A stretch of DNA of 64,000 nucleotides from positions 224,001-288,000 of the forward strand of contig CAVUDW010000002.1 in assembly GCA_963740355.1 (NCBI GenBank), read 5' to 3'. The notes beneath the pieces were generated by a model, which did not search any database, was not told the origin of the DNA, and saw only the letters and a program-made list of their open reading frames with translations. Each line of letters begins with the position of its first letter. Position 1 is the first letter of the stretch. This document shows, piece by piece, positions 24,527 to 64,000 of this stretch. A program made the translations under genes and the position numbers. This DNA is from an uncultured Gemmatimonadaceae bacterium. Its GTDB lineage: Bacteria > Gemmatimonadota > Gemmatimonadetes > Gemmatimonadales > Gemmatimonadaceae.

Positions 24527-25405
24527 ATGACGACGCCGACCCTGGTGGACGCGCCGGCCACTGGCGTGCTGCACGACTTGAAGGAAGTCGTGCATGACAT
24601 CCGACATTCCCGCGGCCTGATCTACCAGCTCACGCTGCGCGATATCCGCGTCCGCTACAAGCAGGCGCTGATGGGCTTCGCGTGGGCGATCCTGTCGCCA
24701 CTGCTGATCGTGGCGGCTGGCGTGGTGGTGCGCGTCGCGCTGCTGCACATGGCAGGACAGCGCTTCGAGATTGCCACGGCCACCGCGATCATAGTGAAAG
24801 GTCTGGCCTGGGGCTTCTTCGCCGCCGCGATCGGCTTCGCGACCTCGGCGCTGACCGGCAATGCGCCGCTGATCTCCAAGGTCTACTTCCCGCGCGAAAC
24901 ACTCCCGCTCTCGGTCATCCTCGCGTCGACCTTCGATTCGATGATCGGCATCGTCGCGATGTCGGTGGCGTTGCCATTCTTCGGCTGGCGCCCGCACTGG
25001 GCCGTGCTCTGGGCGCCGCTGCTGGCGCTGGTGCTCTTCACGTTCACACTGGCGTCCGGCCTGCTCATCAGCTGTGCCAACCTGTTCTACCGCGACGTGA
25101 AGTACATCACACAGCTGCTGGTCACCTTCGGCATCTTCTTTACGCCGGTGTTTTACGAACCGAGCGTGCTCGGCGGAAAGTGGATCGCCTGGCAGATGCT
25201 CAATCCGCTGTCGCCGATTCTCGAGGGGCTTCGCCTGTCGGTGGTGGATGGCCACAACCTGCTCACCACATTGACGCAGGCGGACGGCAGCGTGATCTGG
25301 AGCCCGATGTATCTCGCGTACAGCATGGTGTGGGCGTTTGGTGGGCTGGTCGTGAGCGCCCTCATCTTCCATCGCGCACAGTTCCGCTTCGCGGAGTACG
25401 TCTGA
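24527..25405 (+). CDS. wzm: ABC-2 glycan export permease (Wzm)
   Basis: LTLRDIRVRYKQALMGFAWAIL, LISKVYFPRE, YRDVKY, LNPL, C-terminal FAEYV; several TM helices. Confidence 0.9.
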   Translation: MTTPTLVDAPATGVLHDLKEVVHDIRHSRGLIYQLTLRDIRVRYKQALMGFAWAILSPLLIVAAGVVVRVALLHMAGQRFEIATATAIIVKGLAWGFFAAAIGFATSALTGNAPLISKVYFPRETLPLSVILASTFDSMIGIVAMSVALPFFGWRPHWAVLWAPLLALVLFTFTLASGLLISCANLFYRDVKYITQLLVTFGIFFTPVFYEPSVLGGKWIAWQMLNPLSPILEGLRLSVVDGHNLLTTLTQADGSVIWSPMYLAYSMVWAFGGLVVSALIFHRAQFRFAEYV

Positions 25406-26619
25406 TGGCAGGTGTGACACCAGGAATTCAGTTCGATGGTGTGTGGAAGAAGTTCCGGCGCGGGGAAGTGCACGACTCGTTGCGCGACCTCATTCCAGCG
25501 CTCGCGCGCCGCATGGTCGGTGGCGGCCGCACCGCACCGGAGCTCGCCCGCGATGAATTCTGGGCGCTGCATGATGTGTCGTTTCGCGTTGAACCGGGGC
25601 AGACGCTCGGCGTGATCGGCCACAACGGCGCCGGCAAGTCCACGATCCTGAAGATTCTCACGCGCATCCTCCGGCCGTCGAAAGGCGCCTATGTGGTGCG
25701 CGGTCGCATCGGCGCACTGATCGAGGTGGCAGCGGGATTCCATCCCGATCTCACCGGTCGCGAGAACATCTTCCTGCAGGGCGCGATCATGGGCATGGGG
25801 CGCACGCAGACCCAGCGCAAGCTGGACGAGATCATCGCGTTCTCCGAGATCGAGCAGTTCATCGACACGCCGGTGAAGCGCTACTCGTCGGGCATGAATG
25901 CGCGGCTTGGGTTCTCGGTCGCGGCGCATCTCGATCCGGACGTGCTGATCATCGACGAAGTGCTCGCCGTCGGTGACTACGCGTTCCAGCGCAAGGCGTT
26001 CGGGCGCATCCGAGAGCTCGCTGGCAGCGGCATGCCGGTGGTCGTCGTATCACACCAACTGGATCGGATCGCCGAGCTGTGCACCGATGCCATCCTGTTG
26101 TCACACGGCACGATGGTGGCACAGGGCACGCCGGCCGACGTGATCGGAGCGTACATGCGCGGCGATGGCATGACGGGGAAGCAACTGGCCGACGATTCGC
26201 CCGTGTCTCTCACCTCGGCCGAACTGCTGGATGGCAACGAGGTCCGTTCTGGTGGCGCCATTCGGATCCGGGTAAGTGGGCAGACGCTCGGTCCCATCGG
26301 GCAGCATGTGGAGCCTGTCGGTGTGATCGTGCGCAGCGCGCAGACCGGTGAGATCATCTACGCCACCGGCAGTTCGATTCATAACCTCGACTTTGGCCGC
26401 GGCTCGTTCACGCTCGATGTCGAGTTGCAGATGAACGTGCAGCCCGGCATCTACCTCGCCGATATCGGTGTCTGGGATCGCGCCGACGAAAAGCAGCTGG
26501 CTGCTGGCCCGAGCCTGAACATTCGTGTGACAGAAGGCAGCCTGTTCCTCGGCCCGATCAACCTCAACGGCAGCATGGAAATGTTGCAGGCAGAGGCCCG
26601 CGTGAGGCTCGAGGGGTGA
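25405..26619 (+). CDS. wzt: Glycan export ABC ATPase with C-terminal Wzt_C-like domain (Wzt)
   Basis: FWALHDVSF, GHNGAGKST, GFHPDLTGREN, YSSGM, IIDEVLAVGD, plus an ~150-aa beta-rich C-terminal domain; the true start is the TGATG overlap at 25405. Confidence 0.92.
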   Translation: MAGVTPGIQFDGVWKKFRRGEVHDSLRDLIPALARRMVGGGRTAPELARDEFWALHDVSFRVEPGQTLGVIGHNGAGKSTILKILTRILRPSKGAYVVRGRIGALIEVAAGFHPDLTGRENIFLQGAIMGMGRTQTQRKLDEIIAFSEIEQFIDTPVKRYSSGMNARLGFSVAAHLDPDVLIIDEVLAVGDYAFQRKAFGRIRELAGSGMPVVVVSHQLDRIAELCTDAILLSHGTMVAQGTPADVIGAYMRGDGMTGKQLADDSPVSLTSAELLDGNEVRSGGAIRIRVSGQTLGPIGQHVEPVGVIVRSAQTGEIIYATGSSIHNLDFGRGSFTLDVELQMNVQPGIYLADIGVWDRADEKQLAAGPSLNIRVTEGSLFLGPINLNGSMEMLQAEARVRLEG

Positions 26620-27365
26620 TCGCCGTGCCGTCGGTTGCTCCGGCGGACGGTGTCACTGTCACCCTGCTCCGTCTGCCCGAGGTGCCCGCGACCGCTGACT
26701 TCGCCCTGCTCTCGACGGTCGAGCGCGAGCGGGCAGCGCGCTTTCAGTTCGAGCGCGATCAGGCGTCGTTCGTCACCACGCGCGCCGCATTGCGCCGCCT
26801 GCTGGGCGCCGCCATTGGATGCGAGCCCGCACAGGTCCGGATTGGCGTCGGCGAATACGACCGACCGATGCTCGCGCCGGACCACGCGGCTTCGCTGGAC
26901 TTCAATGTCTCGCATTCCGGCCGTTTGGCTGCCATCGCGCTCTCGTCGGCGGTCCGCGTTGGCGTCGATGTCGAATGGCATGCGCGCAAGCGGTCACTGC
27001 GCGAACTGGTGCCGCAGGTGATGGGGCGCGCCGAGCGTGAACTACTCGATGGCCTGGAAGACCCTGCACTCTTCGAGCGCGCGTTTTACGCCTGCTGGAC
27101 GCGAAAGGAAGCCATCGTGAAAGGCATCGGTGTCGGTATTTCCCACCCGCTGACATCGATCGACGTTCCTGTCGTGCCCGCTGACAATGTCGTGATCGTC
27201 GACGGTACGCCGCCATCGCCGTGGTACTTGGTGACTGACGAGCCGATCGCGGGCTACACCGTATCGGTCGCGCTCGCTGGAACGAGTGGTCTGGTCAGAA
27301 TTTCCCTGTTCGAAAACACCGCGTGTGCCGAGCTCGGCGAAGAATCGGGTCGTGATGCTGTCTGA
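26616..27365 (+). CDS. Sfp-type 4'-phosphopantetheinyl transferase
   Basis: FNVSHSG, VGVDVE, WTRKEAIVKG; GTGA overlap with wzt. Confidence 0.93.
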   Translation: MIAVPSVAPADGVTVTLLRLPEVPATADFALLSTVERERAARFQFERDQASFVTTRAALRRLLGAAIGCEPAQVRIGVGEYDRPMLAPDHAASLDFNVSHSGRLAAIALSSAVRVGVDVEWHARKRSLRELVPQVMGRAERELLDGLEDPALFERAFYACWTRKEAIVKGIGVGISHPLTSIDVPVVPADNVVIVDGTPPSPWYLVTDEPIAGYTVSVALAGTSGLVRISLFENTACAELGEESGRDAV

Positions 27366-27550
27366 TGCATCGCCTCGCCTCGACGGCGTGCGTAGATTGC
27401 GAATCCATTCTCCACTGGCGTCGGCGTTGTGAAACACCGACGCGACGTGGTGGGCAGAATCGATCATGTTGCAGCGGCGGTCTCCAGTGAGCCCGCTGCC
27501 TTTGTGTTGGGCGTCGTCCGACGTCGGATCATGAACGAATCCGGGTTCCA

Positions 27551-30500
27551 GTGAACGTTGCCGAACTGCTGTCGAGTGTAGCCAACACCGGCGTTGAACT
27601 GTGGTTCGAGGGCTCACGCCTTCGTTTCAGGGGTCCGCGGGGCGCGCTCACAGGTGAGCAGCGTGCGGCGCTGTCGTCGAATCGCGCGGCCGTTGTCGAG
27701 CACCTGCGCGCGGTCGCCTCGGAGCAGCTCCACTCGTTCCCGCTGTCGTACAATCAGCGTGCGCTCTGGTTCATCCACCAGGAAGCGCCGACGAATGTGG
27801 CGTACCATGTCGCCCAAGGCATTCGCATCACGTCGGTGGTCCAGCGTGACGCGGTGCGTGAGGCATTGCAGGGAGTGTCGGACCGGCATCCCATGCTGCG
27901 GACGACCTACGCCCTCTCGGACGAGGGCCAGCTGCTGCAGCAGACGCGGGGCGCGGTGGATGTGGCCTTCGATTGCGTCGATGCCACCGGCAGCACCGAG
28001 GACGAGCTGCGCGCACTGGTGGATGCCGACTACGCGCGTCCCTTCGATCTCGAAGACGGTCCGGTGTTCCGTTGCACGCTGTTCTCGCGCGCTGAGGCCG
28101 ACCATGTCCTGGTCATCTACATGCACCACATCGCGGGCGACGCCTGGTCGCTGATGATGGTGCTGGACGATTTCCAGAAGTTGTACGCGGAAGCCTGCGG
28201 ACAGCCGACTTCGCTGCCGGCACGCGTGGAGACGGCGTACGAGTCGTTCGTGACGTGGCAGGAGTCGTGGCTGGCCAGCGACGATGGACAGCGGACCGGC
28301 GCCGCCTGGCAGGCCGTGCTGGCAGCCCCTCGTGCCCAGGTCGAGCTGCCGCCAGACCGGGCGCGCCCGGAACGCAAGACATTTCGCGGGGCGACGATCT
28401 CGTTTTCGCTGGAGGTCGAGACCGTGACCCGGCTGCGACAGGTGGCGCGCGAGCAGCATACCACCCTGTTCGTCGTGTTGCTCGCCGGCTACGTGGCGAT
28501 GCTGCATCGACTCACCGGTGAGACCGACGTGATCGTCGGCACGCCAACATTTGGTCGTACCGATAGTGCGTACTCCCGTGTGGTCGGGCACTTCGTGAAT
28601 CCTGTGCCGCTGCGGACACGCGTCGAATCGACCATCAGCTTCGCGGAACTGGTGGCGCGCGTCGGTCGCACGGTGCGAGCCGCTCTCGATGGACAGGAAT
28701 ATCCGTTCCAGCTGATCGTGCAGCATGCGCATGTGGTGCGCGATCCCAGCAGGTCGCCGCTGTTCGAGGCCTTCTTCGGATTGCTGGCGTTCGATCAGGT
28801 GCGGCATGGTGCCGATCCCGTTCCGCCGGCCGATGGGCCGCGCGATTTCGGTGGCCTGCGCGCCGAGCCGTATTCGCTTCGACAGCAGGAAGGCCAGTTC
28901 GATCTCTCGTTGCAGCTGAGCGAGCATGACGGCGGGCTCGATGGCTGGCTGATTTTCAATCCGGACATTCATGATGCCGACACCATCCAGCAGGTGGCCG
29001 CTCACTACACCGCACTCCTGGGCGGCGCGCTGGTGAGCATGGAGTCAACCGTTGCCGAGTTGCCGCCGCACGCCGATCGTCTGGGTGCCGATCACACGTC
29101 GGCGCACGCGGGGCCGCCGGCGCACGTGCAGCAATTGCTCGATGAACTGGCCGCGCGCGACGTGCGCCTGACGCTCGACGGGGAGAAGCTCAAGGTCAAC
29201 GCGCCGGTGGGCGCGCTGGACGACAGCCTGAAGGCACGCCTGTCACAGGCGAAGGCTGAGATCATCACGGCGCTGCGGGCCGCACCCGAGCCCCGTTCGG
29301 TGTTGCGGCGTGTGCCACGCACGGCGCCGCTGCCGATCTCGTATGCCCAGCAGCGCCTCTGGTTTCTCGACCGCATGGATCCGGGGAACTCGCATTACAA
29401 CATCTCGCTGCCGCTGCGGATCACCGGGCCGCTTGACGTTGCGGTGATGACGCAGGTGCTGGATGCGATTCCGCATCGCCACGAGGCGCTCCGGATCCGC
29501 ATCCGTGACATCGACGGCAACCCGCGCGCTGAATTGATGGAGTCGGTGGGCAGTGTGGTGCGGCTGGTGGACATCAGCGGCCTTGCGCCCGAGGCGCGTG
29601 CGGCCGAGTCGCATCGCCTGCTGCTGCAACAGATGGTCGTGCCTTTCGATCTCGCGACCGGTCCCCTGATCTCGTGCCTGCTCGTGCGTCACTCGGACGA
29701 CGAGTTCGTGCTGATGATCAGCATGCACCACATCGCGTCCGACGGCTGGTCGTTGAGCGTGGTCGTCGGCGAAATCTGCGCGGCGTATGAGGCGGCGATG
29801 GCCGGCCTGCCGTCACCGCTCGCGCCGCTGGAGGTGCAGTACGTGGACTTCGCCGCCTGGCAGCGCGAGCAGATGAATTCCGGCATGCTGGTGCAGCAGC
29901 TGGGTTATTGGCAGCGGGAGCTGGCTGGGGCACCGGTGCTGCTGGAACTGCCGACGGACCGTCCACGCCCCGCGGTGCAGACCTACCGCGGCACCCGCCG
30001 GAAGTACCGGATGGAGCCGGAACTGCTGGCTGGCCTCAAGGCCGTCAGCCGCGCCAGCGACGCCACACTCTACATGACGTTGCTGGCCGGGTGGCAGGTG
30101 CTGCTGCATCGCTATTCGGGGCAGGACGACATCGTGGTCGGCTCGCCGATGGCGAACCGTGATGACCCGGCGCTCGAGCCGCTGGTCGGCTGCTTCGTGA
30201 ACAACGTGGTGATGCGTGGCCGTCTGGAGGGTAACCCCACCTTCCGCGAGTTTCTCGGTCGCACGGCGACGACGGTCCTCGGCGCATTCGATCATCGTGA
30301 GTTGCCGTTCGATCGGCTCGTCGAAGGGCTGCGGCCGGAGCGGAGTACGAGCCACGCGCCGGTGTTTCAGGTGCTCTTCACGCTGCAGTCGTTCCCGGTG
30401 GACAACCGACACCCGGCGGGCCTGCATCTGGAATTGCTGAACATCGAAGACGACGAGCGCGGAACCGCCCGTTTCGACCTCACACTCGAAATGGACGAGC

Positions 30501-32518: not shown

Positions 32519-32551
32519 GCAGTCGCTGCGGCGTGCACAGGGAGTCGAGGC

Positions 32552-40100: not shown

Positions 40101-40452
40101 GGTGGTGCTGGTCGAGTCATTCGTCCTCACGCCCAACGCCAAGATCGACAGCAAGGCGCTGCCGGAACCGTTTGCACACGCGAAGTTCGCGCCGCATGAG
40201 TTCGTTGCGCCGGCGACCGACTCGGAGAAGATGATTGCCGAGGTCTGGACCCGTTTGCTTGGGGTACCACATGTGGGTGCTTCCGACAGCTTTTTCGAGC
40301 TTGGCGGCCATTCGCTGCTCGCGATGCGTGCAGCGAGCGAAATTTCGGAACGGAGCGGTCGAGTGATCGAACCGCGCCTGCTCTTCTTCCGCACCCTTGG
40401 CCAGCTGGCCGAAGCGTGTGATGCCACGATCCCAGTTGCCGGACGCACGTGA
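37123..40452 (+). CDS. NRPS2: TubC_N-C-A-PCP, no thioesterase
   Basis: N-terminal docking domain, HHIAVD, YTSGSTGTPKG, YGPTE, YRTGD, GGHSL. Confidence 0.93.
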   Translation: MSNATFALLDQLRALDVHVRAEDGRLRISAPKGSLTPALEAALVASKAELLKVLTAAPTAAATSTPVLSPVPRIGTLRLSYLQERLWVLDQLQPGHTAYNLATASSVIDPLDIPRLVAASRRLIARHEILHSHFVLDGSSPVVRVAPADSTRIDVRDLRGLAVEEQQRVVSAAASVAAHAPFDLAHESPVRIEILQTGDTAGAFVFSAHHIAVDSWSMGLLMQELTREYESLAAGQSPPREPEPLQYIDFAQWQRAVMEGPGAQARLKFWTDRLAGLPQMSTFPTDHPRPIDVSGVGMAYDFAWSPELYDGVKAMARDLDATLYMILLAAMASVLSRNTGQTDIALGSPLGTRERSELEAMIGPIVNPLVMRFDLSDDPPFATLVKRAREAVLDGHANQDVPFETLVQQLNPDRSLGHAPLFQVAVVQHSAPNAGGTAITGGGAIYDVTMFATEHHGMLTGALEYRSDLYDPATIARVDSQIQSLLMAAARDHQRRVSELPLLTPAESARLLHEFNPAPADVDRTTVVAQFARTATAHGARGAVLASDGTLTYAELDRRSNLVAHALRAAGAGRGMYVALATDRSSAMVVGALGILKAGAAYVPVDVAYPADRVAFMLRDSGVQHIVTTEEALQSIRDLQLPSAVIKVDELVSSDAVAPTIAVADGPTPEDVAYLIYTSGSTGTPKGVMVPHRAMSNFLGAMRERPGISPDDGVMCVTSMSFDISVLEVFLPLVSGARTIIAAREDASDGARLAELIRRSEATMVQSTPSGWRLLMNARWSGDERVTAIAGGEPMPEDLTRWLTERVRRVWNGYGPTETTVYSTMALLTGSDMITIGTPVANTRVYVLDAGGMLAPIGAPGEIVIGGDGVTLGYRNRADLTAEKFVPDPFQPGQTVYRTGDIGRWRSDGRLEHLGRIDGQVKVRGYRIETGEIEAALSTHEMVRTAVVGVRHASADDPRLVAWVQLHEEDSCTASELRRHLRQMLPEFMIPSMVVLVESFVLTPNAKIDSKALPEPFAHAKFAPHEFVAPATDSEKMIAEVWTRLLGVPHVGASDSFFELGGHSLLAMRAASEISERSGRVIEPRLLFFRTLGQLAEACDATIPVAGRT

Positions 40453-53500: not shown

Positions 53501-54132
53501 GTGGGCGCGGATTGCACTGGATCGATCCCGAGCGCGCCTTCGCGCAGATGGCGCGGCTGCTCGCAGAGCACGCCACGCAGGTGATTGCGATGCCCATCAA
53601 CTGGGCACAGTTCCTCGAAAGACTGCCCGCAGGCGAGGATCGCAGCTTCTTCCGCGCGGTCGAGCCGATGGTGCGTCGAGTGCCGACGGCACCGCTGGCA
53701 GCCACCGGCCGCGCGGTGTCGGTGGTGGAGAGCTGGCGCGCAGCACCGGCGTCAGCCTGGCGCGACCTCGCCATTGCGCACGTCCTCGAGCGAACGCGCC
53801 AGGTGCTGGGGGTAGACGACCTGTTCGTGATCCCGGAAGGGGTGGCGCTGAAGGATGTGGGACTCGATTCGCTGATGGCGGTCGAGTTGCGCAACGTGCT
53901 GACGCGGTCGCTGGGCAAGTCGCTGCCGGCGACCCTCCTCTTCGACTACCCGTCGCTCGATGCACTGAGTGGCTACCTGCTGCGCACCTTCGAGCTGTTA
54001 CCACCGGTGGTGCCCGCCGTCGTGAGCGTGCCAACCAACGCCACCTCCGAGATCGAAACACTCACCGACGAGGAAGCAGAAGCGTTGCTGCTGGCCGAAC
54101 TGAACTCCCTGGACTCCCAAGGCCGCCGATGA
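47559..54132 (+). CDS. PKS3: KS-AT-DH-ER-KR-ACP, one +1 frameshift at ~49899
   Basis: DTACSS, GHSIG/YAFH in the first [32 protein letters not shown] and ACP GLDSL in the second. Deleting one base restores [11 protein letters not shown]. Confidence 0.9.
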
Positions 54133-57100: not shown

Positions 57101-58547
57101 CGATACGATCCTCGACGTCGCCGGCATCCTGCCGACGCATCGCCATCTCGTGTCGCGCTGGCTGCAACACCTGGTGGCGGACGGCTCTCTACGGCAGGAT
57201 GGCGACGTCTTTCTCGTGCGCGAATTGCGTCCACGCGCACCGCTGGCGGAACTGTGGGCGGAAGCGGAACAGCGCTTCCAGAACAACCGTGAAATGCTGG
57301 CGTACGTGAAGAACTGCGCTGCGCGACTGACGGCGATCGTGACCGGCAAGGAGAGTTCGCTCGAGTCGCTGTTCCCGAACGGCTCGTTCGACCTCGCGAC
57401 CGCGCTCTACGAGCAGTCGGCCACCATGCGGTACATCAACGGACTGGCCGCCGCAGGGATCGAAGCGGTGGGTCGAACGATGCCGGTAGGGCGCACACTC
57501 CGCGTGCTGGAGATTGGCGCCGGTACTGGTGGCACATCCTCGTCGCTGATCCCGGTGCTGGCAGCTGATCGGACCGATTACCTCTTCACCGATGTCAGTG
57601 ACGCGTTCCTCGAGCGCGCGCGGGGGCGATTCGCCAACTATCCGCAGGTGCGCTTCGGCCTCTTCGATCTCGAGATCGATCCGGCGCAGCAAGGTTACAC
57701 TGCTGGACAGTTCGACGTGATCGTGTCGGCCAACTGCGTGCATGCGTCGCGCGACCTGCGTGCCGTGCTGGCGCGACTGCGCGCGCTGCTGGCACCAGGT
57801 GGGCTGCTGATGCTGGTCGAATCGACCGTGCACTTCGACTTCTTCGACATCACCACCGGATTGATCGAAGGCTGGCAGGCATTCGCCGACGATCTCCGGA
57901 CCGACAATCCGCTGCTCCCGCCCGAAACCTGGACGGAGGCGATGCGCGTCGCTGGCTTCGAGTTCGCCGAAGCGTGGCCGGAGCGGAGTTCAGTGGCGGA
58001 TGCACTTGGCCAACACGTCATCGTCGCACGGGCGCCGGGGGCCGTCTCGGCAGTGGCGACCGCTGCTACAGCACCGCGGACCGAACGTGCGGTGGCGGAC
58101 GTTCCGGCGGCACCAGTCGTGAACGATTTCCGGCTCCGCCTCGTGGAGGCCCTGCCCGCCGAGCGCCACGCAATGATGTGCGACGGGGTGCGCGGTGAAG
58201 TGATGCGTATCCTGCGCCTGGACGCATCATCGCCACCCTCTCGGCAGGATCGCCTGATGGAATTGGGCATGGATTCACTGATGGCGGTGCAACTGCGCAA
58301 CGCCCTCTCGACCATGCTCGAACTCGATCGAGCGTTGCCCTCGACCCTCATCTTCGACTACCCGACCATCGATGCAATCGCGGGCTTCCTGATGGAACGG
58401 AGTGGCCTGCTTGCCGCCGCGACACCGTCGCCGGTCGTTGCGACGCCGCGAGTCGATGAGACGGCAACCATCGCGGCCAGTACGATCGCCGGCATGAGTG
58501 ACGATGAAATCGCGGCCGCCCTGCTGGCGCGCGAGGATGGCGCGTGA
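54129..58547 (+). CDS. PKS4: KS-AT(malonyl)-C-methyltransferase-ACP, no KR
   Basis: DTACSS, GHSFG/HAFH, MT LEIGAGTGG and NCVHA, ACP GMDSL. Confidence 0.92.
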   Translation: MSSDTTTPADLSPVKRALLEIRDLRSRLAALEAERHEPIAIVGMSIRAPGGVTDVASYSRLLWSGTDAITDIPASRWSMEEWYAEPQDAAGKMYTRFGGFISDVDQFDAEFFGIAPVEAASMDPQQRLVLELAWHALEDSGHAPASLAGTAAGVYLGISNSDYGRALFAHPELIDPYFSPGTASSVAAGRVSYVLGLHGPAISVDTACSSSLVSLHLAVQGLRQGECDLALAGGVNLILTPELNVNFSKAGMMSRDGRCRTFDADGAGYVRGEGGGMVVLRRLRDAVADGDRILAVVRGSAVNQDGRSNGLTAPNGPSQEAVVRAALANAGIAPKLVSYVEAHGTGTSLGDPIEVNALSAVLCEGRDADSPLMLGSVKTNIGHLEAAAGIAGVIKAVIALQQQEIPPHLHFATPNPYIDWTAMPMQVPTTVTPWAPIEGRRVAGVSSFGFSGTNAHVILEQAPEPASSDATPVGAAEYVLALSARDTTALRTLVEQFSDRLRAVDAADTATLANICFTASVGRSHLAHRLAVSGATAEALVVGLDAWLHGTSHPRVVTGVAGAEAPRVAFLFPGQGPQYVGMGRQLYDTIPEYRRAFDACADALDPLLPLPIRPIVFPDDGDATLLNQTAYAQPAMFAIEYALASLWKSWGVQPTAVMGHSFGEYAAACVAGVVSLPDAAKMVVTRGRLVAALPGDGLMTVVEASESELLDAIRAQGGVVAIAAINGASNCVISGDRKDVTAIAEGFGAMGRRTKALRVSHAFHSPMMDPVLDEFERELSSVTYTAPTTSLISNLTGNVADLSTIGHTHYWREHLRNSVRFSQSVQVLAAQRITHYIEMSPHPVLLGMAAECVTGGVWLPSLREDQGAWSEMLLALQRLYVDGAAIEWAAVVGTGAHYRVQLPTYPFQRKRHWIDAVGTPAVSSAANAPIADFWSVAVPSLNAQALRGPLDLDAESYPAKWECLARLTNALVMQALRDLGVFTRKGESHTLDTILDVAGILPTHRHLVSRWLQHLVADGSLRQDGDVFLVRELRPRAPLAELWAEAEQRFQNNREMLAYVKNCAARLTAIVTGKESSLESLFPNGSFDLATALYEQSATMRYINGLAAAGIEAVGRTMPVGRTLRVLEIGAGTGGTSSSLIPVLAADRTDYLFTDVSDAFLERARGRFANYPQVRFGLFDLEIDPAQQGYTAGQFDVIVSANCVHASRDLRAVLARLRALLAPGGLLMLVESTVHFDFFDITTGLIEGWQAFADDLRTDNPLLPPETWTEAMRVAGFEFAEAWPERSSVADALGQHVIVARAPGAVSAVATAATAPRTERAVADVPAAPVVNDFRLRLVEALPAERHAMMCDGVRGEVMRILRLDASSPPSRQDRLMELGMDSLMAVQLRNALSTMLELDRALPSTLIFDYPTIDAIAGFLMERSGLLAAATPSPVVATPRVDETATIAASTIAGMSDDEIAAALLAREDGA

Positions 58548-61500
58548 GCGAACAGGCGTCCGGCACACCGGCACTCTCCCCACTCCAGCGCGCCTTCATC
58601 GCGCTGGAGGAAACGCGCGCACGCCTGAAAGTGGCGGAAGCGGCTGCGCGCGAACCGATTGCAGTCATCGGGCTCGGTTGCCGTGTGCCAGGCCAGGCGA
58701 ACGACGCCTCGAGTTTCTGGAAGTTGCTCAGCGAGGGTGTCGACGCGATCGGCCCGGTGCCGGCGGATCGATGGGACGTTGATGCGTATTACAACCCCGA
58801 TGCAGAGAACCCCGGCACCATCGCGACCCGCCACGGTGGCTTCCTTGGCGCCGTGGACGGGTTCGACCCGACGTTCTTCGGGATCGCACGTCGTGAAGCG
58901 CAGGGGATGGACCCGCAGCAGCGCCTGTTGCTCGAGGTGGCGTGGGAAGCGCTGGAGCATGCCGGCCAGGCGCCAGATGGCCTGACGCGCTCATCCACCG
59001 GCGTGTATGTCGGGTGCGCTGGCAACGATTACGCGTTCATGCAGCTCGAGACCCGCGACCGTGAGCTGCTGGATTCGCACTTCGCGTCGGGTATGGGACA
59101 CAGCGTGCTTTCGGGCCGCATCTCCTACCTGCTTGGATTGCAGGGCCCGAGCCTGACGGTGGACACCGCCTGTTCATCGTCGCTGGTGGCGGTGCATCAG
59201 GCCTCGCAGGCACTGCGCGCCGGGGAGTGCCGGATGGCGCTGGCTGGCGGTGTGAACCTGATCCTGTCGCCCGACATCTACATCGCGCTGTCACGCTCGC
59301 GGATGCTCTCGCCCGATGGTCGCTGTCGCACCTTCGACGCCGCAGCGGACGGGTTCGCGCGGGGCGAAGGCTGCGGCGTGGTGGTGCTGAAGCGATTGAG
59401 CGACGCCGTGGCTGATGGTGATCGTGTACTGGCCGTCATTCGCGGCAGCGCCGTGAATCAGGATGGTGCGAGCAGTGGCCTCACGGCGCCGAACGGCCCG
59501 CAGCAGGAAGCGGTGATCCGCGAAGCATTGACGCGCGCCGGCATTGCGCCGCGACTGGTGAGCTACATCGAGGCGCACGGCACCGGTACGCAGCTCGGCG
59601 ATCCGCTCGAGATGCAGGCTCTGGGCGAGGTGTTCGGTGCGGATCGCGATGGCGTGCCCGCATTGTACGTCGGCTCGGTGAAGACGAACGTCGGTCACCT
59701 CGAAGCTGCCGCCGGTGTCACGGGGCTGATCAAGCTCGTGTTGTCGCTGCAGCACAAGGAGATTCCCGCCCACCTGCACTTCACCACGCCCAGCCCCCAC
59801 ATCCCGTGGGACGAGATTCCTGTGCAGGTCCCGACCAAACGTATCGCCTGGCCGGCGATCGACGGTCGGCGGATTGCCGGTGTCAGCTCGTTTGGTTTCA
59901 GTGGAACGAACGCGCACATCGTGGTCGAGGAAGCGCCGGCGACGGCGCCTGAACCGCTTGGCAGTGCGCTGCGACGGCTCGTGTTTGCGATGTCAGCCGA
60001 GAGCGAAGCGGCCTTGAAGGCGCTGGCAGCAGTGTATGCGTCGAGCTTCGTGGAAACGGCGGAAGGTGACTTTGCGAATGTGTGCTACACGGCGGCGGTG
60101 TCGCGGGCGAAGCATCCGTATCGCGCCGTTGTGCTGGCGTCCTGTGTGCAGGAGTTGCGTGAGTCACTGCTGAACCTTGTGGACGGTGTCGAGGATGATC
60201 GGGTGCGAACGGCGCGTGTCACGGGTCGCGATCCGGCACGCCTGGCCTTCCTGTTCACCGGACAGGGCGCACAGTACGCGGGCATGACGCAGCAGCTGAT
60301 CGAACACGAGCCGGTGTTTCGTGATGCGATCGATCGATGCGCCGCGATCCTCGCTCCGGTGCTCGACAAGCCGCTGCGGTCGCTGCTCGATGCCGCATCG
60401 CCTGACGCACGCTTCTCGACGAGACCCAGTACACGCAGCCGGCACTGTTCGCGGTGGAATACGCGATGGCGTGCCTGTGGCAGTCGTGGGGTATCTCACC
60501 GGACGCGGTCATCGGGCATTCCGTCGGCGAATACGTCGCGGCCTGTGTGGCAGGCGTGCTGTCGCTCGACGATGCGCTGCGACTGATCACCGAACGTGGC
60601 CGCCTGATGCAGGCGTTGCCTGCGGGCGGTGCAATGGCGGCGATCTTTGCACCGGAAGCCGAGGTGTCACCGCTGGTCGAATCGCGTCGCGACGCACTCG
60701 CGATCGCTGCGATCAATGGCGCGGCGCAGACGGTCGTATCTGGCACCACCGAGCCGCTGTTGACGAACTCGCGGCCCACTTCACAGCGCGCGGCATTCGC
60801 GTGCAGAAGCTGACGGTTTCGCATGCGTTCCACTCGCCGCTGATGGACCCGATGCTGGAAACGTTCCAGCGTGCGGCGTCGCAGGTCACCTACGCACGCG
60901 CCTCGACTGCGGCTGATCTCGAACGTGACTGGTGCGGTAGCCGATGCCGCTGTGGTCACCACGCCGACGTATTGGCGCGACCATGTGCGCGCCGCCGTGC
61001 GATTCGCCGACGGGATGCGCTCACTGGCCGCACTCAAGCCGGATGTCTGTCTCGAAGTCGGCCCACACCCGACGTTGCTGCCGTTCGCGAGGAAGCCTTC
61101 GTCGACGGTGCGTCACGCTTCGCGGCCAGCGTGCGCAAGACGCTGCCACCGTACGACCAGCTGGCAGAAGCGCTGGGGACGCTCTTCCTCGCTGGCGCGC
61201 CGATCGACTGGCGTGCCGTCTGGTCGTCGCATGCGGTGACGCTGGTCGACCTGCCGACGTACCCGTTCCAGCGCGAGCGCTGCTGGTTCGCTGCCAAGCG
61301 TGTCTCGGCGGCGAATGGGCAAGGACACGGGCCACCCGCTGCTCGGCACGCGATTGCGGTCCTCGCTGAAGGACGTCGTGCAGTTCGAGCGGGTACTCCA
61401 GTCGACTGATCTGCCCTACCTCCGCGATCATCGGGTGAGTGGACGGACGATTCTCCCGGGCGCCGCGTACGTCGAGATGGCATTGAGTGCCGCGCGTCTC

Positions 61501-64000
61501 GTGCTCGACGGCACGCGTGCGATTCATGATCTCGTGATTGCCGAACCCCTTGTGGTCGGTGATGATGAGGCGCGGCGCGTGCAGACGGTCATTCGCTTCC
61601 GTGATGACGGTGTGTCGACGTTCGAGATCGTATCGATCGACGCGGCAGCCGACGACGATGAGTGGCATGTGCACGCGAAGGGCACCTTGCCGGCACTGTC
61701 GCAGGTCGCACCAGCAGTGCCAGCTCAGTCGTCGACATTTGATGCGCGTATCGACGGGGCGACGCACATCGATCAGTTGGCGGCCCGTGGCCTGGTGTTC
61801 GGGTCGAGCCTGCATGGCGTGCGGCAGATCGATCGTGTGGACGGCGCCGCGGTCGGCGTCATCACGCAGCCGATCGACGTCGAACACGACGAGTCGCATT
61901 ACCTGCTCCCACCCGCACTGCTCGACGCCTGTCTGCAGGTGATCGCGTCAGCGATTCCCGACGGCGCAAGCCGGAATGTGCCGTACCTGCCGCTGATCAT
62001 CGAACGGATCCACGTGTACCGCACGCCCGACGCCTCGGTGCGGAGCTTTGCGTTCGTCAACGAGCCAGCCGTACGACCCGCGGAGACGCTGACGGGTCGC
62101 ATCGTGATCGTCGACGCACTCGGCGTGGCAGCAGAGTTGGAGGGTGTCACGCTGCGCGCCGCGGCGGACGACAGTAGTGCGGTCGCGAAGGACCTGTACA
62201 CGGTGACATGGGAACGTCTCGACGAGCAGGCGCCGTGGACACCGACGACGACGCAGTTGGCACATACCGTCGGGCCGAAAGCTCGACGCGCTCGCCGTCG
62301 AACACGACTTCGCGTCGTACTTCCGTGCCTATGCGGCACTCGAGACGCTATCGACGAACTGGATCGTGCTGGCGCTGCGTGAACTGGGCTGGGCTCCACG
62401 ACCGGTGATACCGTGCGCGCCGCCGATCTTGGCGTCACCCTTGGCGTGTTGCCACGATACCATCGCCTGCTGCATCGCCTGCTCGAGATCCTTCACGAGG
62501 ATGCCATCGTGCGTCGCGAGGGCGATTCGTTCGTGGTGATCGAACTGCCAGCGGCGGACCTGTCATCGACGATCCCTCCGGCCGCGGCTGTCTTCGGGCC
62601 GTCCTCTGCACGCCTCGAAATCACGCAGCGGTGCGGCGATGTGTTCGCTGACATCCTGCGCGGTGACGTCGATCCGTTGCAGCAGCTGTTCCCGAATGGT
62701 TCGTCCACCCTCGCGGAGTCTCTGTATCGCGACACGCCGGAGGCGAAGGGATTCAATCAGCTCGTGCGCGAGACGGTGCGCGAAGTGGCGTCGTGTCTGC
62801 CTGCTGATCGCACGCTGCGCATCCTCGAGGTGGGCGGTGGCACCGGTGGCACGACCGCCTGGGTGTCACCGATCCTCGACGCTGCACGCACCGAGTACCT
62901 GTTCACCGACCTCGGGCCGCTGCTGGTCGAGCGCGCGCGTGAACGGTTTGGGCCGGCGAACCCGTACATGCAATTCGCGACAGTTCGATCTCGAGCGTGA
63001 TCCATCGTCGCAGGCACCGGGTGGCAAGCAGTTCGATGTGATCCTGGCGTCGAACGTGATTCATGCCACCGCCGACCTTCGGCAGACGCTGCGTCACCTT
63101 CGCGGCCTGCTGGCCCCCGGCGGCGTGCTGCTGATGCTGGAAGTCGCGGATCGCGAGCGCTGGATCGACCTCACCTTCGGCTTGACCGATGGCTGGTGGC
63201 GATTCGTCGATACCGATCTGCGTGCCGAGTACCCTCTGCTGTCGCGCGACGAGTGGATCGCCCTGCTGGCATCGGAAGGGTTCGAAGCGGAACCGGTGAA
63301 CGCGCCGCATCCGCATTCGCGCGAGGTATTGCTGGCGGCACGGAAGCCTGCGCAGGAGAAGTGTGCCGGCGGGTCAATCGTGGTTGGTGCTGGCGGACGC
63401 CGGTGGTGTGGGTGATGCCCTTGCCACGCGCCTTCGTGAAGACGGACAGCAGGTGCAGGTCGTTCATGCGCGCTGCCGCCGCAGAGGTGCAGCAGTCGAT
63501 CGCCGAACATGCGGCAGCAGCGGTTGGCATCGTGCACCTCTGGAGCCTCGATGTACCGCCGGCCGACGAGCGTGACGCGACCTCGCTGCTTTCGGCGCAG
63601 GAGACCAGCCTCGGTTCCATCCTGACCGTCGTGCAGGCGCTTGGACGCATGTCGTTCGCCAGTGACGCGGCGCCGCGACTGTTCATCACCACGCGCGGCG
63701 CAACGGCGGCTGGTGCGACTGCACCGGTGGAGTTGTCGCAAGCCGCAGTCTGGGGCTTGGGGATGGGTGTGGCGCAGGAGCATCCGGAGTTGCGTCCGAC
63801 GAGAATCGATCTCGACGCGACAGCCACCGTCGAGTCGCAGGTGGCATCGCTGCTCGGTTGCCTGACGTTGCCGCCTGAGGACGACCAGTACGCAGTGCGC
63901 GGCGCGTCACGATATGTGCCGCGGATCACACCGTACGTCGCGCCGGCCGTGGCATCACCGGCGGGCACGTTGCAGCGTCTCGAGCGCTCGGCGAGTGGCG
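58544..64000 (+). CDS. PKS5 (3'-truncated): KS-AT(malonyl)-DH-cMT-KR structural subdomain, probably ER next; about 10 frameshifts
   Basis: [44 protein letters not shown] and GIVHLWSLD appear in order across alternating frames. Confidence 0.85.

What the first reader, a model, noticed from the sequence alone, without database searches (positions are those of the whole stretch)
24527..64000. Hybrid NRPS-PKS assembly line headed by a Wzm/Wzt glycan exporter: candidate polyketide-peptide-glycan surface conjugate system
Seen: wzm and wzt overlap (TGATG), wzt overlaps the PPTase (GTGA), and more than 36 kb of co-oriented NRPS/PKS genes follow, mostly with 4-bp overlaps. Known: Wzm/Wzt export lipid-linked O-antigen or cell-wall glycans rather than small-molecule antibiotics. 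PKS genes tied to capsule loci (RkpA, WcbR) are single PKS proteins, not multimodular hybrids. Inference: this line makes a methyl-branched polyketide-Gly acyl chain that anchors or decorates an exported glycan. The hydrolase pair typical of exopolysaccharide loci and the lack of a terminal TE point the same way. No glycosyltransferase is in the window, so the link is unproven.
Basis: partly seen in the sequence, partly recalled or inferred. Interest (0 to 1): 0.9.

Follow-up and report, generated by a model that had tools for sequence, protein, structure and literature searches.

The report
Polyketide-peptide line with glycan-type exporter
A soil or sediment Gemmatimonadaceae bacterium carries a 55-kb operon whose product is probably a methyl-branched fatty-acyl-glycine-type lipopeptide, and it seems to release and export that product with parts borrowed from cell-surface polysaccharide systems rather than the usual antibiotic machinery.

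Summary
A co-oriented NRPS/PKS operon follows and runs 15.4 kb past the window to 79369. It has 7 PKS modules, 2 NRPS modules and no cis TE.

The exporter is truly Wzm/Wzt-type. It is a 52%-identical duplicate of a pair in this genome's own rml/glycosyltransferase locus, and its fold matches full-length A. aeolicus Wzt including the C-terminal domain.

The hydrolase pair is a divergent member of the exosortase-A hydrolase-2/hydrolase-1 pair. It shares the gene order, Arg at the nucleophile position of hydrolase 2, and Cys in hydrolase 1.

Synteny recurs in 7 of 19 same-genus genomes. No GT1 or GT2 glycosyltransferase lies on the cluster contigs of four relatives, or within 75 kb here.

Best reading (0.5): an envelope-directed acyl-Gly lipopeptide, released by the Cys hydrolase and exported by a re-purposed Wzm/Wzt. 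Two new loci support it indirectly: an NRPS-hydrolase cassette inside an EPS locus of this genome, and a PKS/NRPS inside a Verrucomicrobial O-antigen locus.

Several PKS genes show frame breaks in this assembly.

The parts
24527..25405 (+). wzm: ABC-2 permease, first gene of the operon
   Evidence: PF01061 ABC2_membrane, E 1.6e-10. The only NCBIfam hit is the galactan export permease Wzm/RfbD, far below its cut-off. 52% identical to the permease of the rml/GT locus at G000:C2:649.8 kb. Upstream lies a 218-nt gap to a divergent FKBP lipoprotein gene at 23751-24308 on the minus strand.
25405..26619 (+). wzt: ABC ATPase with a C-terminal beta-sandwich domain (residues about 262-396)
   Evidence: Best NCBIfam hits are TagH (175.6 bits) and Wzt/RfbE (173.4 bits), against DrrA at 121.3 bits. 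All are below their cut-offs. Pfam Wzt_C reaches only E 0.18 on this protein, but 3 of the 120 listed homologs (68-72% identical) carry PF14524. The AF2 model has pLDDT 81.9. The top 7 Foldseek hits are full-length A. aeolicus Wzt over 390-414 columns. Against the paralog, the NBD is 64% identical and the C-terminal domain 31%.
26616..27365 (+). Sfp/HetI-type phosphopantetheinyl transferase
   Evidence: PF01648 and PF22624. The best NCBIfam hit is HetI, below its cut-off. Relatives also carry it, but in other positions within the cluster.
27551..32518 (+). NRPS1: dock-C1-dock-C2-A(Gly)-PCP
   Evidence: Pfam finds two Condensation and two TubC_N stretches, plus A and PCP. The C motifs are HHIAGDA and HHIASDG. 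The specificity code is DILQLGMIWK, placed by recalled anchors. Relatives match it in one piece over residues 1-1654 at 67-70% identity.
32552..37126 (+). PKS2: KS-AT-KR-ACP that follows an NRPS module
   Evidence: Pfam. The KS has no N-terminal docking helix and reads IQTACSTS. The AT motif is HAFH. The C-terminal tail reads ...DREEFEL.
37123..40452 (+). NRPS3: dock-C-A(Gly-like)-PCP, the last module, with no TE or R domain
   Evidence: Pfam. C motif HHIAVDS. Specificity code DILQIGGVYK, placed by recalled anchors.
40449..41234 (+). hyd2: alpha/beta-fold protein with Arg at the nucleophile position (probably inactive partner)
   Evidence: Best NCBIfam hit is TIGR03101 hydr2_PEP at 96.7 bits, against a cut-off of 202.75. 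G108-x-R110-x-G112 is invariant in 11 of 11 aligned orthologs. The same GxRxG is present in 5 of 5 canonical hydr2_PEP proteins read.
41231..42181 (+). hyd1: alpha/beta hydrolase with a Cys nucleophile
   Evidence: Best NCBIfam hit is TIGR03100 hydr1_PEP at 73 bits, against a cut-off of 168.45. G117, C119, G121, D142 and H271 are invariant in 33 of 33 sequences. Neighbours of canonical hydr2_PEP show a GLCD motif at the same place. AF2 pLDDT is 85.3. The fold is a generic alpha/beta hydrolase.
42178..42954 (+). Discrete thioesterase (type II-like)
   Evidence: PF00975, E 1e-47. GHSMG motif is present. Its start overlaps the hyd1 stop as ATGA. One metagenome protein, P0208 (517 aa), fuses a hyd1 homolog to PF00975.
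42951..47552 (+). PKS7: KS-AT-KR-ACP, probable first PKS module
   Evidence: Pfam. It is the only one of the six downstream PKS genes without an N-terminal docking helix. KS Cys is present (DAACSSG). The AT motif is VASH.
47559..54132 (+). PKS8: KS-AT-DH-ER-KR-ACP, with the frame broken near 49901-49909
   Evidence: Pfam splits the AT between two frames, profile positions 2-216 and 216-315. tblastn maps the change of frame.
54129..58547 (+). PKS9: KS-AT-cMT-ACP, with no KR
   Evidence: Pfam.
58544..64000 (+). PKS10: KS-AT-DH-(cMT?)-ER-KR-ACP, running on to 66180 beyond the window, with several frame breaks and in-frame stops between about 60400 and 63400
   Evidence: Pfam and frame maps. A 102-aa stretch at 62978-63283 matches the methyltransferase part (Pfam range) of a G011 PKS at 57% identity. 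Beyond the window lie PKS11 (66184-72899, KS-AT-DH-cMT-KR-ACP, in three frames) and PKS12 (72845-79369, KS-AT-DH-ER-KR-ACP, intact, tail ...SWEEGSL).

Best explanation
This is one operon of about 55 kb. It runs from 24527 to 79369 in window coordinates, so the last 15.4 kb lie beyond the window. It belongs to an uncultured Gemmatimonadaceae bacterium and makes an envelope-directed lipopeptide.

**Assembly (order inferred).**
- Six PKS modules (PKS7 to PKS12) build a mostly reduced chain. C-methyltransferase domains add the methyl branches.
- The acidic C-terminal tail of PKS12 docks on the TubC-type domain of NRPS1. Tandem C domains there join the chain to glycine.
- PKS2 adds one beta-hydroxy C2 unit.
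- NRPS3 adds a second, glycine-like residue.

**Release (inferred).** No cis thioesterase exists. I propose that the chain leaves the last PCP through hyd1, a Cys-nucleophile alpha/beta hydrolase, working with hyd2, a partner that has Arg in place of the nucleophile. [quoted passage not shown] A Cys enzyme suits transfer of the acyl chain through a thioester intermediate, either to water or to another acceptor.

**Export (inferred).** The amphiphilic product is taken out of the inner membrane by a Wzm/Wzt pair. This pair arose by duplication of the family's O-antigen-type exporter, and its C-terminal binding domain has since diverged.

**Shown:** genes, domains, motifs, homologies, synteny and the duplication.

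**Inferred:** module order, release chemistry, cargo of the exporter, and absence of a covalent sugar.
For: **Architecture and overlaps.**

**Module order.**
- PKS7 alone lacks an N-terminal docking helix, and PKS2 has the QTACSTS-type KS.
- PKS12 and PKS2 end in acidic tails, while NRPS1 and NRPS3 begin with TubC_N domains.
- In G267 the colinear order PKS-PKS-(C-C-A-PCP)-(C-A-PCP)-hyd2-hyd1 is found.

**Exporter.**
- It scores nearer to TagH/Wzt than to DrrA.
- Its 52%-identical paralog sits next to rmlA/D/B, WbsX and GT2 genes.
- Its fold matches full-length A. aeolicus WzmWzt.
- The eight NRPS-adjacent Wzt proteins form one clade (SH-aLRT 99), inside a Gemmatimonadaceae Wzt group that also holds this genome's other copy.
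- Within the NRPS-linked class the C-terminal domain is 47-68% identical. Against other homologs it is 30-42% identical, while the NBD stays at 64-88% throughout.

**Link between exporter and line.**
- Wzt at 64-79% identity is found in 7 of 19 same-genus genomes.
- It is followed by the same NRPS1-PKS2-NRPS3-hyd2-hyd1-TE-PKS order in G004, G011 and G017, and by the start of that order in G007 and G012, whose contigs end early.
- G005 keeps it next to a different, NRPS-only line.

**Hydrolase pair as off-loader.**
- It directly follows the last NRPS module in 7 of 7 other Gemmatimonadota genomes fetched.
- Canonical pairs show the same motifs and the same hyd2-then-hyd1 order.
- One canonical locus reads acyl-CoA ligase (TIGR03098), PLP decarboxylase, hydr2, hydr1, exosortase-associated acyltransferase (TIGR03694) and an HAE3/MMPL transporter.
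- A genetic link between N-acyl amino acid synthases and PEP-CTERM/exosortase systems is stated in the passages I read of PMC4897644.

**No sugar genes near the cluster.**
Against: - No cargo is known for any member of this Wzt clade.
- A retained and conserved Wzt C-terminal domain fits a glycan ligand at least as well as a lipopeptide.
- The nearest relatives of both accessory units (Wzm/Wzt and hyd2/hyd1) come from polysaccharide loci.
- The paralogous NRPS-PPTase-hyd2-hyd1 cassette of this same genome lies inside an EPS locus.
- No loading module or starter-activating enzyme was found.
- The role of the first C domain is unexplained.
- The discrete PF00975 thioesterase could be the true release enzyme.
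- The specificity codes and docking logic rest on recalled rules.
- Frame breaks in PKS8, PKS10 and PKS11 may mean that the line is not functional in this genome.
Confidence: 0.5

Rival explanations
1. The acyl-peptide is transferred from the last PCP, by the Cys hydrolase or by the spare C domain, onto a lipid-linked glycan made elsewhere in the genome. There it acts as a cap or anchor. The diverged Wzt C-terminal domain recognises that cap, and the dedicated Wzm/Wzt exports the conjugate.
For: - Wzt keeps a conserved C-terminal domain with the fold of the A. aeolicus Wzt binding domain.
- The hydrolase pair is homologous to that of exosortase/EPS loci.
- In the same genome, at G000:C1 about 16.7-37.5 kb, a two-module NRPS, a PPTase, hyd2 and hyd1 lie co-oriented behind Bac_transf, Poly_export, Wzy_C, GT2 and WecG genes.
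- In a Chthoniobacterales MAG, a PKS, two NRPS modules (the last with a TE) and a PPTase are followed directly by wzm-GT2-wzt-GT2-x-GT4-AsnB-GT2. A WecA-like gene and an O-antigen ligase-like gene lie divergently upstream.
- Of six other NRPS-hyd loci checked, GT2 or Bac_transf genes lie within 15 kb in five: G000:C1, G176, G199, G298 and G276. G267 has none. G199 and G298 belong to one genus.
Against: - No glycosyltransferase, sugar-nucleotide or polyprenyl-phosphate transferase gene was found in the cluster, or in the ORFs scanned over 36 kb downstream and 24 kb upstream.
- No GT2 or GT1 match lies on the cluster contigs of G004 (117 kb), G005 (145 kb), G011 (84 kb) or G017 (49 kb), nor within 75 kb in G000.
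- None of the other NRPS-hyd loci has a wzm or wzt within the 20 kb fetched on either side.
- The Chthoniobacterales Wzt is phylogenetically unrelated to this clade, so the analogy is indirect.
Confidence: 0.25
2. An ordinary diffusible secondary metabolite (antibiotic, biosurfactant or metallophore). The ABC-2 pair serves only as a generic export or self-resistance pump, and the hydrolases are editing enzymes.
For: - ABC-2 exporters are common in biosynthetic clusters (recalled).
- A discrete thioesterase is present.
- A PepSY_TM gene follows the line here and in G011, and a TonB-dependent receptor lies 9.5 kb downstream.
Against: - The pump is specifically a duplicate of the family's polysaccharide exporter and keeps its extra domain.
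- The DrrA model scores lower than TagH/Wzt.
- No gene for a chelating group was seen, and both A domains look glycine-like.
- The hydrolase pair has an inactive member and a Cys member that are conserved across phyla next to carrier-protein enzymes. That is not the pattern of editing thioesterases.
Confidence: 0.15
3. In this particular genome the cluster is decaying. The frame breaks are real mutations and no full-length product is made. This reading is independent of the others.
For: - PKS8 has one frame change.
- PKS10 has a frame change plus several in-frame stops between 60.4 and 63.4 kb.
- PKS11 is read in three frames.
- Elsewhere the assembly is mostly clean: 12 of 14 RND pump genes are in one frame.
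Against: - The neighbouring CusA-type gene is also in three pieces, and another RND gene on C3 is in four. Breaks are therefore not confined to this cluster.
- The six downstream PKS genes of G011 and G004 (short-read MAGs), which stand in the same place in the cluster though mostly under 55% identical to these, are each one open frame of 1502-2620 aa.
- Where short-read contigs of run X1 match the window perfectly, they cover unbroken parts. In the broken zone only a contig about 91% identical is found. Contigs there carry 1-base differences at 60411, 61089, 62281 and 62980. This suggests a poor consensus in a strain-variable stretch.
Confidence: 0.15

Closest known systems
WzmWzt O-antigen ABC exporter (A. 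aeolicus structures 7K2T, 8DL0, 8DNE, 8DKU; E. coli O9a type)
   Same: - Separate ABC-2 permease and ATPase genes that overlap.
- The ATPase carries a C-terminal beta-sandwich domain.
- The fold matches over 390-414 columns at 28-30% identity.
- A 52%-identical paralog sits in a true rml/glycosyltransferase locus of the same genome.
   Different: - It heads an NRPS/PKS operon that has no sugar genes.
- Its C-terminal domain is only 31% identical to the paralog's.
- Its cargo is unknown.
- That the O9a domain binds a terminal cap of the glycan is recalled, not tested here.
Exosortase A (XrtA/PEP-CTERM) locus cassette: acyl-CoA ligase TIGR03098, decarboxylase TIGR03099, hydrolase 2 TIGR03101, hydrolase 1 TIGR03100, acyltransferase TIGR03694
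   Same: - An adjacent, overlapping hydrolase-2-then-hydrolase-1 pair.
- GxRxG in hydrolase 2 and a Cys at the nucleophile elbow of hydrolase 1.
- Placement next to an adenylating, carrier-protein type enzyme and a lipid-type exporter.
   Different: - Scores are well below the curated cut-offs: 96.7 against 202.75 and 73 against 168.45.
- The partner is a 9-module assembly line instead of one ligase.
- The exporter is Wzm/Wzt instead of an HAE3/MMPL protein.
- The only exosortase gene of this genome lies 366 kb away.
- No function has been shown for the canonical pair. The searches found no study of it.
Mycobacterial envelope-lipid loci (PDIM/PGL with DrrABC; glycopeptidolipids). Recalled, not tested.
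   Same: Large PKS or NRPS lines whose lipid products go to the cell envelope through a dedicated ABC-2 exporter. Release or transfer is by a stand-alone enzyme rather than a cis TE.
   Different: - A different phylum and a different exporter subfamily (DrrA scores lower than Wzt/TagH here).
- No MmpL gene.
- The transferase there is a C-domain-like PapA protein, not an alpha/beta hydrolase pair.
Recalled, not tested.
   Same: A polyketide enzyme genetically tied to an ABC-transporter-dependent surface glycan system.
   Different: Those are single PKS proteins inside loci full of sugar genes. Here a multimodular hybrid line stands with the exporter alone.

Membership tests
Wzm/Wzt (O-antigen/teichoic-acid type ABC-2 exporters) | Separate ABC-2 permease and ATPase genes, adjacent | tested here: met
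   PF01061 and PF00005 are on overlapping genes, joined as TGATG.
Wzm/Wzt (O-antigen/teichoic-acid type ABC-2 exporters) | ATPase sequence nearest to the Wzt/TagH/RfbE models | tested here: inconclusive
   The best hits are TagH (175.6 bits) and Wzt/RfbE (173.4 bits), ahead of DrrA (121.3 bits). All are below their curated cut-offs of 538, 400 and 312.
Wzm/Wzt (O-antigen/teichoic-acid type ABC-2 exporters) | C-terminal Wzt_C-type binding domain | tested here: met
   Pfam on this protein gives only E 0.18. Homologs at 68-72% identity carry PF14524. The model aligns with full-length A. aeolicus Wzt over both domains.
Wzm/Wzt (O-antigen/teichoic-acid type ABC-2 exporters) | Locus holds glycosyltransferase or sugar-nucleotide genes | tested here: not met
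   None found in the cluster or among the flanking ORFs scanned. No GT2 or GT1 lies within 75 kb, or on the cluster contigs of four relatives. The paralogous pair does have such neighbours.
Wzm/Wzt (O-antigen/teichoic-acid type ABC-2 exporters) | Cargo is a polyprenyl-diphosphate-linked glycan | not testable with these tools
   This needs biochemistry or genetics.
Exosortase A-associated hydrolase 2 / hydrolase 1 pair (TIGR03101 / TIGR03100) | Score over the curated cut-off | tested here: not met
   96.7 against 202.75 bits, and 73 against 168.45 bits. Each family is nevertheless the best hit for its protein.
Exosortase A-associated hydrolase 2 / hydrolase 1 pair (TIGR03101 / TIGR03100) | Two adjacent genes in the order hydrolase 2 then hydrolase 1 | tested here: met
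   Here the genes overlap as ATGA. The same order is seen in the 6 canonical loci read.
   R110 is invariant in 11 of 11 sequences and C119 in 33 of 33. Canonical members show GxRxG in 5 of 5 and GLCD in 5 of 5.
Exosortase A-associated hydrolase 2 / hydrolase 1 pair (TIGR03101 / TIGR03100) | Lies in an XrtA/PEP-CTERM locus | tested here: not met
   The single Exosortase_EpsH match of the genome is at C2:615331-616092, 366 kb away.
Modular hybrid NRPS / type I PKS assembly line | Complete C-A-PCP and KS-AT-ACP module sets with catalytic motifs | tested here: met
   Pfam. The active-site Cys is present in all 7 KS domains and HHxxxD in all 3 C domains.
Modular hybrid NRPS / type I PKS assembly line | Loading module and cis release domain (TE or R) | tested here: not met
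   No loading didomain, FAAL or CoA ligase was found, and no TE or R at either possible end, NRPS3 or PKS12. G011 likewise has none.
DrrAB-type antibiotic ABC-2 exporters | ATPase matches the drrA subfamily model | tested here: not met
   TIGR01188 scores 121.3 bits against a cut-off of 312.45, lower than the Wzt/TagH models.

The most novel reading that the evidence does not exclude
The assembly line makes a methyl-branched acyl-Gly-ketide-Gly chain. The Cys hydrolase transfers it directly from the carrier protein onto the end of a lipid-linked surface glycan. The duplicated Wzt reads this lipopeptide cap with its diverged C-terminal domain and exports the conjugate.

More broadly, the hydrolase-2/hydrolase-1 pair of exosortase and EPS loci would be a general 'carrier-protein-to-envelope-polymer' acyl transferase. 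NRPS/PKS lines would then be a hitherto unrecognised source of covalent decorations or anchors of bacterial surface polysaccharides.
Probability: 0.25. Interest if true: 0.9.

Novelty: new variant of a known kind. Interest (0 to 1): 0.62.

Why it matters
Three things here are unusual, and each can be tested.

1. **A re-used glycan exporter.** An O-antigen-type Wzm/Wzt, binding domain included, has been duplicated and fixed at the head of an NRPS/PKS operon across a genus. Either this exporter class can carry a non-glycan amphiphile, or assembly-line products are joined to glycans.

2. **A proposed role for an uncharacterised protein pair.** The exosortase-associated hydrolase pair has no known function. 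Here it repeatedly sits where a thioesterase should be, with one inactive member and one Cys member. That suggests what the pair does in exosortase/EPS loci, namely take acyl groups off carrier proteins.

3. **A little-known phylum.** My literature searches turned up no described NRPS/PKS product from Gemmatimonadota. A cell-envelope lipopeptide would bear on how these abundant soil bacteria build their surface.

Tried and rejected
- **ORF 23676-24281 (+).** It looked conserved upstream of wzm, but its translation is Arg-rich nonsense. The real gene is an FKBP lipoprotein on the minus strand.
- **Upstream two-component system and RND pump as part of the export route.** Rejected. The pump is a CusA/CzcA heavy-metal pump over its cut-off, with heavy-metal-type regulators.
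- **Siderophore reading.** PepSY_TM and a TonB receptor lie downstream, but no chelator chemistry was seen. Kept only inside the minor rival.
- **Complex prediction for hyd2 with hyd1.** Whether the two proteins bind is untested.
- **Foldseek of the hyd1 model.** It gave only generic esterases and lipases, with the thioesterase DcsB at rank 16-18. This is not informative about function.
- **Rfam over the whole window.** No match.
- **Promoter and terminator scan of 23600-27700.** No more sites than in shuffled sequence.
- **tblastn with the six rml/GT-locus proteins against the 80 Wzt loci.** 0 of the 8 NRPS-adjacent loci matched, and 19 of the other 72 did. This method is weak for diverse glycosyltransferases.
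- **Read laying.**
  - Runs X1 and X2 hold only short contigs.
  - None of the perfectly matching pieces bridges a frame break.
  - X2 pieces are mostly 90-95% identical relatives with many chimeric joints.
  - Putting the four 1-base differences into the frame count did not give one open frame.
- **Literature searches.**
  - Searches found no described cluster of this kind and no functional study of the hydrolase pair.
  - PMC10875860 (passages read) was not relevant.
  - Craig et al. 2011 (PMC3187218) is not held. I saw it only as a reference entry and in one sentence of PMC4897644.
  - No supplements were read.
- **The search of earlier findings.** It returned nothing for this genome.

Full report
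**Where the window lies.** The window is G000:C2:224001-288000. The assembly has 5.45 Mb in 5 contigs, 65% G+C and no N. Public records that carry the nearest relatives of its genes are titled MAGs of Gemmatimonadaceae.

**Checking the observation.**
- All listed genes from 24527 to the window end are on the + strand.
- Pfam gives, in order:
  - ABC2_membrane (24527-25405)
  - ABC_tran (true start 25405, to 26619)
  - a PPTase (26616-27365)
  - NRPS1, with TubC_N twice, Condensation twice, A and PCP (27551-32518)
  - PKS2, KS-AT-KR-ACP (32552-37126)
  - NRPS3, TubC_N-C-A-PCP (37123-40452)
  - two alpha/beta hydrolases (40449-41234 and 41231-42181)
  - a PF00975 thioesterase
  - PKS modules up to the window end.
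- Reading the junctions confirms TGATG at wzm/wzt and GTGA at wzt/PPTase.
- It also shows 4-bp overlaps at seven of the ten later junctions in the window, once the thioesterase and PKS7 are started at 42178 and 42951.

**Extending the contig.** The line goes on to 79369.
- PKS10 ends at 66180 (DH-ER-KR-ACP part).
- PKS11 runs 66184-72899 (KS-AT-DH-cMT-KR-ACP, read in three frames).
- PKS12 runs 72845-79369 (KS-AT-DH-ER-KR-ACP, intact). No TE or R domain follows.
- Behind it lie an EamA-like gene, a PepSY_TM gene, a hydrolase on the other strand, an S9 peptidase with TPR repeats, a TonB-dependent receptor and a BNR/sortilin protein.
- I scanned the ORFs of 250 aa or more in this stretch and found no sugar gene among them.
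- Upstream lie chemotaxis genes, a heavy-metal two-component system and a CusA/CzcA pump scoring 851.9 bits against a cut-off of 701.45.
- A divergent FKBP lipoprotein gene also lies upstream. The operon therefore starts at wzm.

**Frame breaks.**
- The AT domain of PKS8 is split between two frames near 49901-49909.
- PKS10 changes frame near 60400 and then has in-frame stops at about 60811, 61237, 62380 and 62998.
- PKS11 is in three frames.
- The CusA gene in the window is in three pieces. Genome-wide, 12 of 14 RND pump genes are in one frame and 2 are in pieces.
- In the two short-read MAGs G011 and G004, all six downstream PKS genes are single open frames of 1502-2620 aa.
- Short-read contigs of run X1 that match the window perfectly cover only unbroken parts. 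In the broken zone only a contig about 91% identical was found. Contigs there carry 1-base differences at 60411, 61089, 62281 and 62980.
- Counting those differences in did not restore one frame.
- I read this as a poor consensus in a strain-variable stretch. Real decay in this genome is not excluded.

**Is the transporter Wzm/Wzt?**
- *Sequence models.* The ATPase (404 aa) scores best against the TagH and Wzt/RfbE models (175.6 and 173.4 bits) and lower against DrrA (121.3). All are below the curated cut-offs.
- *Extra domain.* It has about 150 extra C-terminal residues.
  - Pfam Wzt_C reaches only E 0.18 on this protein.
  - Three listed homologs at 68-72% identity carry PF14524.
  - An AlphaFold model from 42 sequences (pLDDT 81.9) shows an all-beta domain at 267-394.
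  - Its seven best Foldseek hits are chains of full-length A. aeolicus WzmWzt, aligned over 390-414 columns.
- *Paralog.* The genome holds a second pair, 52% identical in both proteins, at C2:649.8-652.0 kb. That pair is followed by rmlA, rmlD, rmlB, a methyltransferase, two WbsX glycosyltransferases and a GT2.
- *Divergence.* Between the two Wzt copies the ATPase domain is 64% identical and the C-terminal domain 31%.
- *Tree.* In a tree of 54 Wzt proteins taken from loci of known context, the eight NRPS-adjacent ones form one clade (SH-aLRT 99). That clade lies inside a Gemmatimonadaceae group (97) that also holds the rml-locus copy. This was the quick search, not the finished careful one.
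- *Conservation within the class.* Within the NRPS-linked class the C-terminal domain stays 47-68% identical. Against other homologs it drops to 30-42%.
- So the exporter is a duplicated O-antigen-type Wzm/Wzt whose extra domain is kept but has changed.

**Does the synteny recur?**
- Of 19 same-genus genomes, 7 hold a Wzt at 64-79% identity: G002, G004, G005, G007, G011, G012 and G017.
- In G004, G011 and G017 it is followed by NRPS1, PKS2, NRPS3, hyd2, hyd1, the thioesterase and PKS7 at 54-79% identity. In G007 and G012 the contig ends earlier, after part of NRPS3 and part of PKS2 respectively.
- In G005 it is followed by two NRPS modules, hyd2, hyd1 and the PPTase, without PKS genes in the 9 kb behind.
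- The PPTase changes place between genomes.
- Of the 80 best Wzt loci from 185,579 species genomes, 8 have NRPS/PKS genes within 10 kb. Seven are these Gemmatimonadaceae loci and one is a Chthoniobacterales MAG.
- The PKS part is not fixed. G011 has the same six module types, but the fully reducing module comes first instead of last. Most of its modules are under 55% identical to those here.

**The assembly line.**
- All seven KS domains have the active-site Cys.
- PKS7 has no N-terminal docking helix, while PKS8-12 do.
- PKS2 also has none, and carries the QTACSTS motif that I recall as typical of a KS fed by an NRPS.
- PKS12 and PKS2 end in acidic tails (...SWEEGSL and ...DREEFEL). NRPS1 and NRPS3 begin with TubC_N domains.
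- I therefore order the line PKS7-8-9-10-11-12, NRPS1, PKS2, NRPS3. This order is inferred. It is supported by the colinear arrangement PKS, PKS, C-C-A-PCP, C-A-PCP, hyd2, hyd1 in G267.
- AT motifs are HAFH in four modules, YAFH in PKS8 and VASH in PKS7. Their meaning is recalled.
- C-methyltransferase domains sit in PKS9 and PKS11, and probably in PKS10.
- The three C domains read HHIAGDA, HHIASDG and HHIAVDS.
- The ten specificity residues, placed by recalled anchor motifs, read DILQLGMIWK (the glycine code as I recall it) and DILQIGGVYK (glycine-like).
- No loading module was found.
- Tandem C domains at a PKS-to-NRPS junction have a fungal precedent in PfaA, where both are needed (abstract of PMC11731387).

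**The hydrolase pair.**
- *Family.* NCBIfam names hydr2_PEP and hydr1_PEP as the best families, far below their cut-offs.
- *Motifs.*
  - In hyd2 the nucleophile position is an invariant Arg, in 11 of 11 sequences.
  - In hyd1 it is an invariant Cys, with invariant Asp142 and His271, in 33 of 33.
- *Canonical members.*
  - I fetched them from another class, where 13 of 201 genomes score over the cut-off.
  - They show the same GxRxG in hydrolase 2 (5 of 5) and the same Cys in the neighbouring hydrolase 1 (5 of 5).
  - They also show the same hyd2-then-hyd1 order.
- *One canonical locus.* It reads PrsK, the XrtA-system glycosylphosphotransferase, the PLP decarboxylase and the acyl-CoA ligase. 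It goes on with an 86-aa ORF, hydr2, hydr1, the exosortase-associated acyltransferase TIGR03694 and, further on, an HAE3/MMPL transporter.
- *Within the phylum.* 26 of 301 Gemmatimonadota genomes have a hyd2 homolog at E<=1e-20.
- *Position in assembly lines.*
  - In all 7 genomes I fetched, hyd2-hyd1 directly follows the last NRPS module of an NRPS or NRPS/PKS line.
  - None of these has a wzm or wzt within the 20 kb fetched on either side.
- *Fusion.* One metagenome protein fuses hyd1 to a PF00975 thioesterase.
- I conclude that the pair is a carrier-protein off-loading unit. A Cys nucleophile suggests acyl transfer, as in PHA synthases (recalled).

**Evidence that bears on a glycan link.**
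- *Against.* No GT2 or GT1 match lies on the cluster contigs of G004, G005, G011 or G017 (117, 145, 84 and 49 kb). The nearest in G000 is 75 kb away.
- *For, in this genome.* A second NRPS-PPTase-hyd2-hyd1 cassette lies at C1:16.7-26.6 kb. It is co-oriented directly behind a nucleotidyltransferase, Bac_transf, Poly_export, Wzy_C, GT2 and WecG genes.
- *For, in other NRPS-hyd loci.*
  - G176 has GT2 genes 2 and 5 kb from its cassette and a Bac_transf gene 7 kb away.
  - G199, G298 and G276 have a GT2 at 8, 15 and 13 kb.
  - G267 has none within 50 kb.
  - G187 and G320 were not checked.
- *For, in another phylum.*
  - The Chthoniobacterales locus reads methoxymalonate-type genes, a free A domain, a PKS, two NRPS modules (the last with a TE) and a PPTase.
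  - Then come wzm, GT2, wzt, GT2, an unknown gene, GT4, AsnB and GT2.
  - A WecA-like gene and an O-antigen-ligase-like gene lie divergently upstream.
  - Its Wzt is unrelated to the Gemmatimonadaceae clade, so this is an independent association.

**Verdict.**
- Both accessory units come from surface-polysaccharide systems, and their link to the assembly line is conserved.
- What the exporter carries is unknown. I favour a sugar-free envelope lipopeptide (0.5) over a covalent glycan conjugate (0.25).
- The tally of 18 of 201 genomes includes one genome flagged unpublished (G472).

Noticed in passing
G000:C1:16700-37500 (loci L121, L122): A second NRPS cassette of the same genome lies inside an EPS-type locus. 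All genes are on one strand: nucleotidyltransferase, Bac_transf, unknown, Poly_export, two unknowns, Wzy_C, GT2, WecG, a two-module NRPS, a PPTase, hyd2-like and hyd1-like. Two DUF1996 genes follow.
   Followed up: partly
L070 and L120 (G327:C19:28640-69199, record titled MAG Chthoniobacterales bacterium): A PKS/NRPS line with a terminal TE and a PPTase is followed directly by wzm-GT2-wzt-GT2-x-GT4-AsnB-GT2. Divergent GT4, WecA-like and O-antigen-ligase-like genes lie upstream. This is an assembly line embedded in an ABC-type O-antigen locus of another phylum.
   Followed up: partly
window 20538-23584: The CusA/CzcA-type RND gene is read in three frames. Another RND gene, at G000:C3:454494-457469, is in four pieces. 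The other 12 RND genes are intact.
   Followed up: partly
window 23676-24281 (+) against 23751-24308 (-): A 201-aa ORF on the + strand looks conserved by tblastn, but it is the shadow of an FKBP-type lipoprotein gene on the minus strand.
   Followed up: yes
L015 / L025 (G005:C183): A variant cluster reads wzm-wzt, two NRPS modules, hyd2, hyd1 and a PPTase. It lacks the first C domain of NRPS1, PKS2, the thioesterase and any PKS in the next 9 kb. An FAD-dependent oxidoreductase lies further on.
   Followed up: partly
P0208 (metagenome protein, 517 aa): A hyd1 homolog (55% identical) is fused to a PF00975 thioesterase domain.
   Followed up: no
window-extended 80445-81704 and 88919-91102 (L001, L002): A PepSY_TM gene follows the last PKS gene, here after an EamA-like gene and in G011 directly. 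A TonB-dependent receptor lies 9.5 kb downstream on the other strand.
   Followed up: partly
G000:C2:615331-660000: The only exosortase (EpsH) gene of the genome lies 35 kb from the rml/GT locus that holds the second Wzm/Wzt pair. Several GT1 and GT2 genes lie between them.
   Followed up: no
L129 (G480:C1:2562001-2582000): In a canonical XrtA locus, the hydrolase pair is flanked by the exosortase-associated acyltransferase (TIGR03694). A ThiF-like gene and an HAE3/MMPL-type transporter lie further on. An 86-aa ORF just before hydrolase 2 was not identified.
   Followed up: partly
window 1043-7478: A chemotaxis gene set: CheA-CheW fusion, CheR, CheD, a CheX-like gene and CheB.
   Followed up: no
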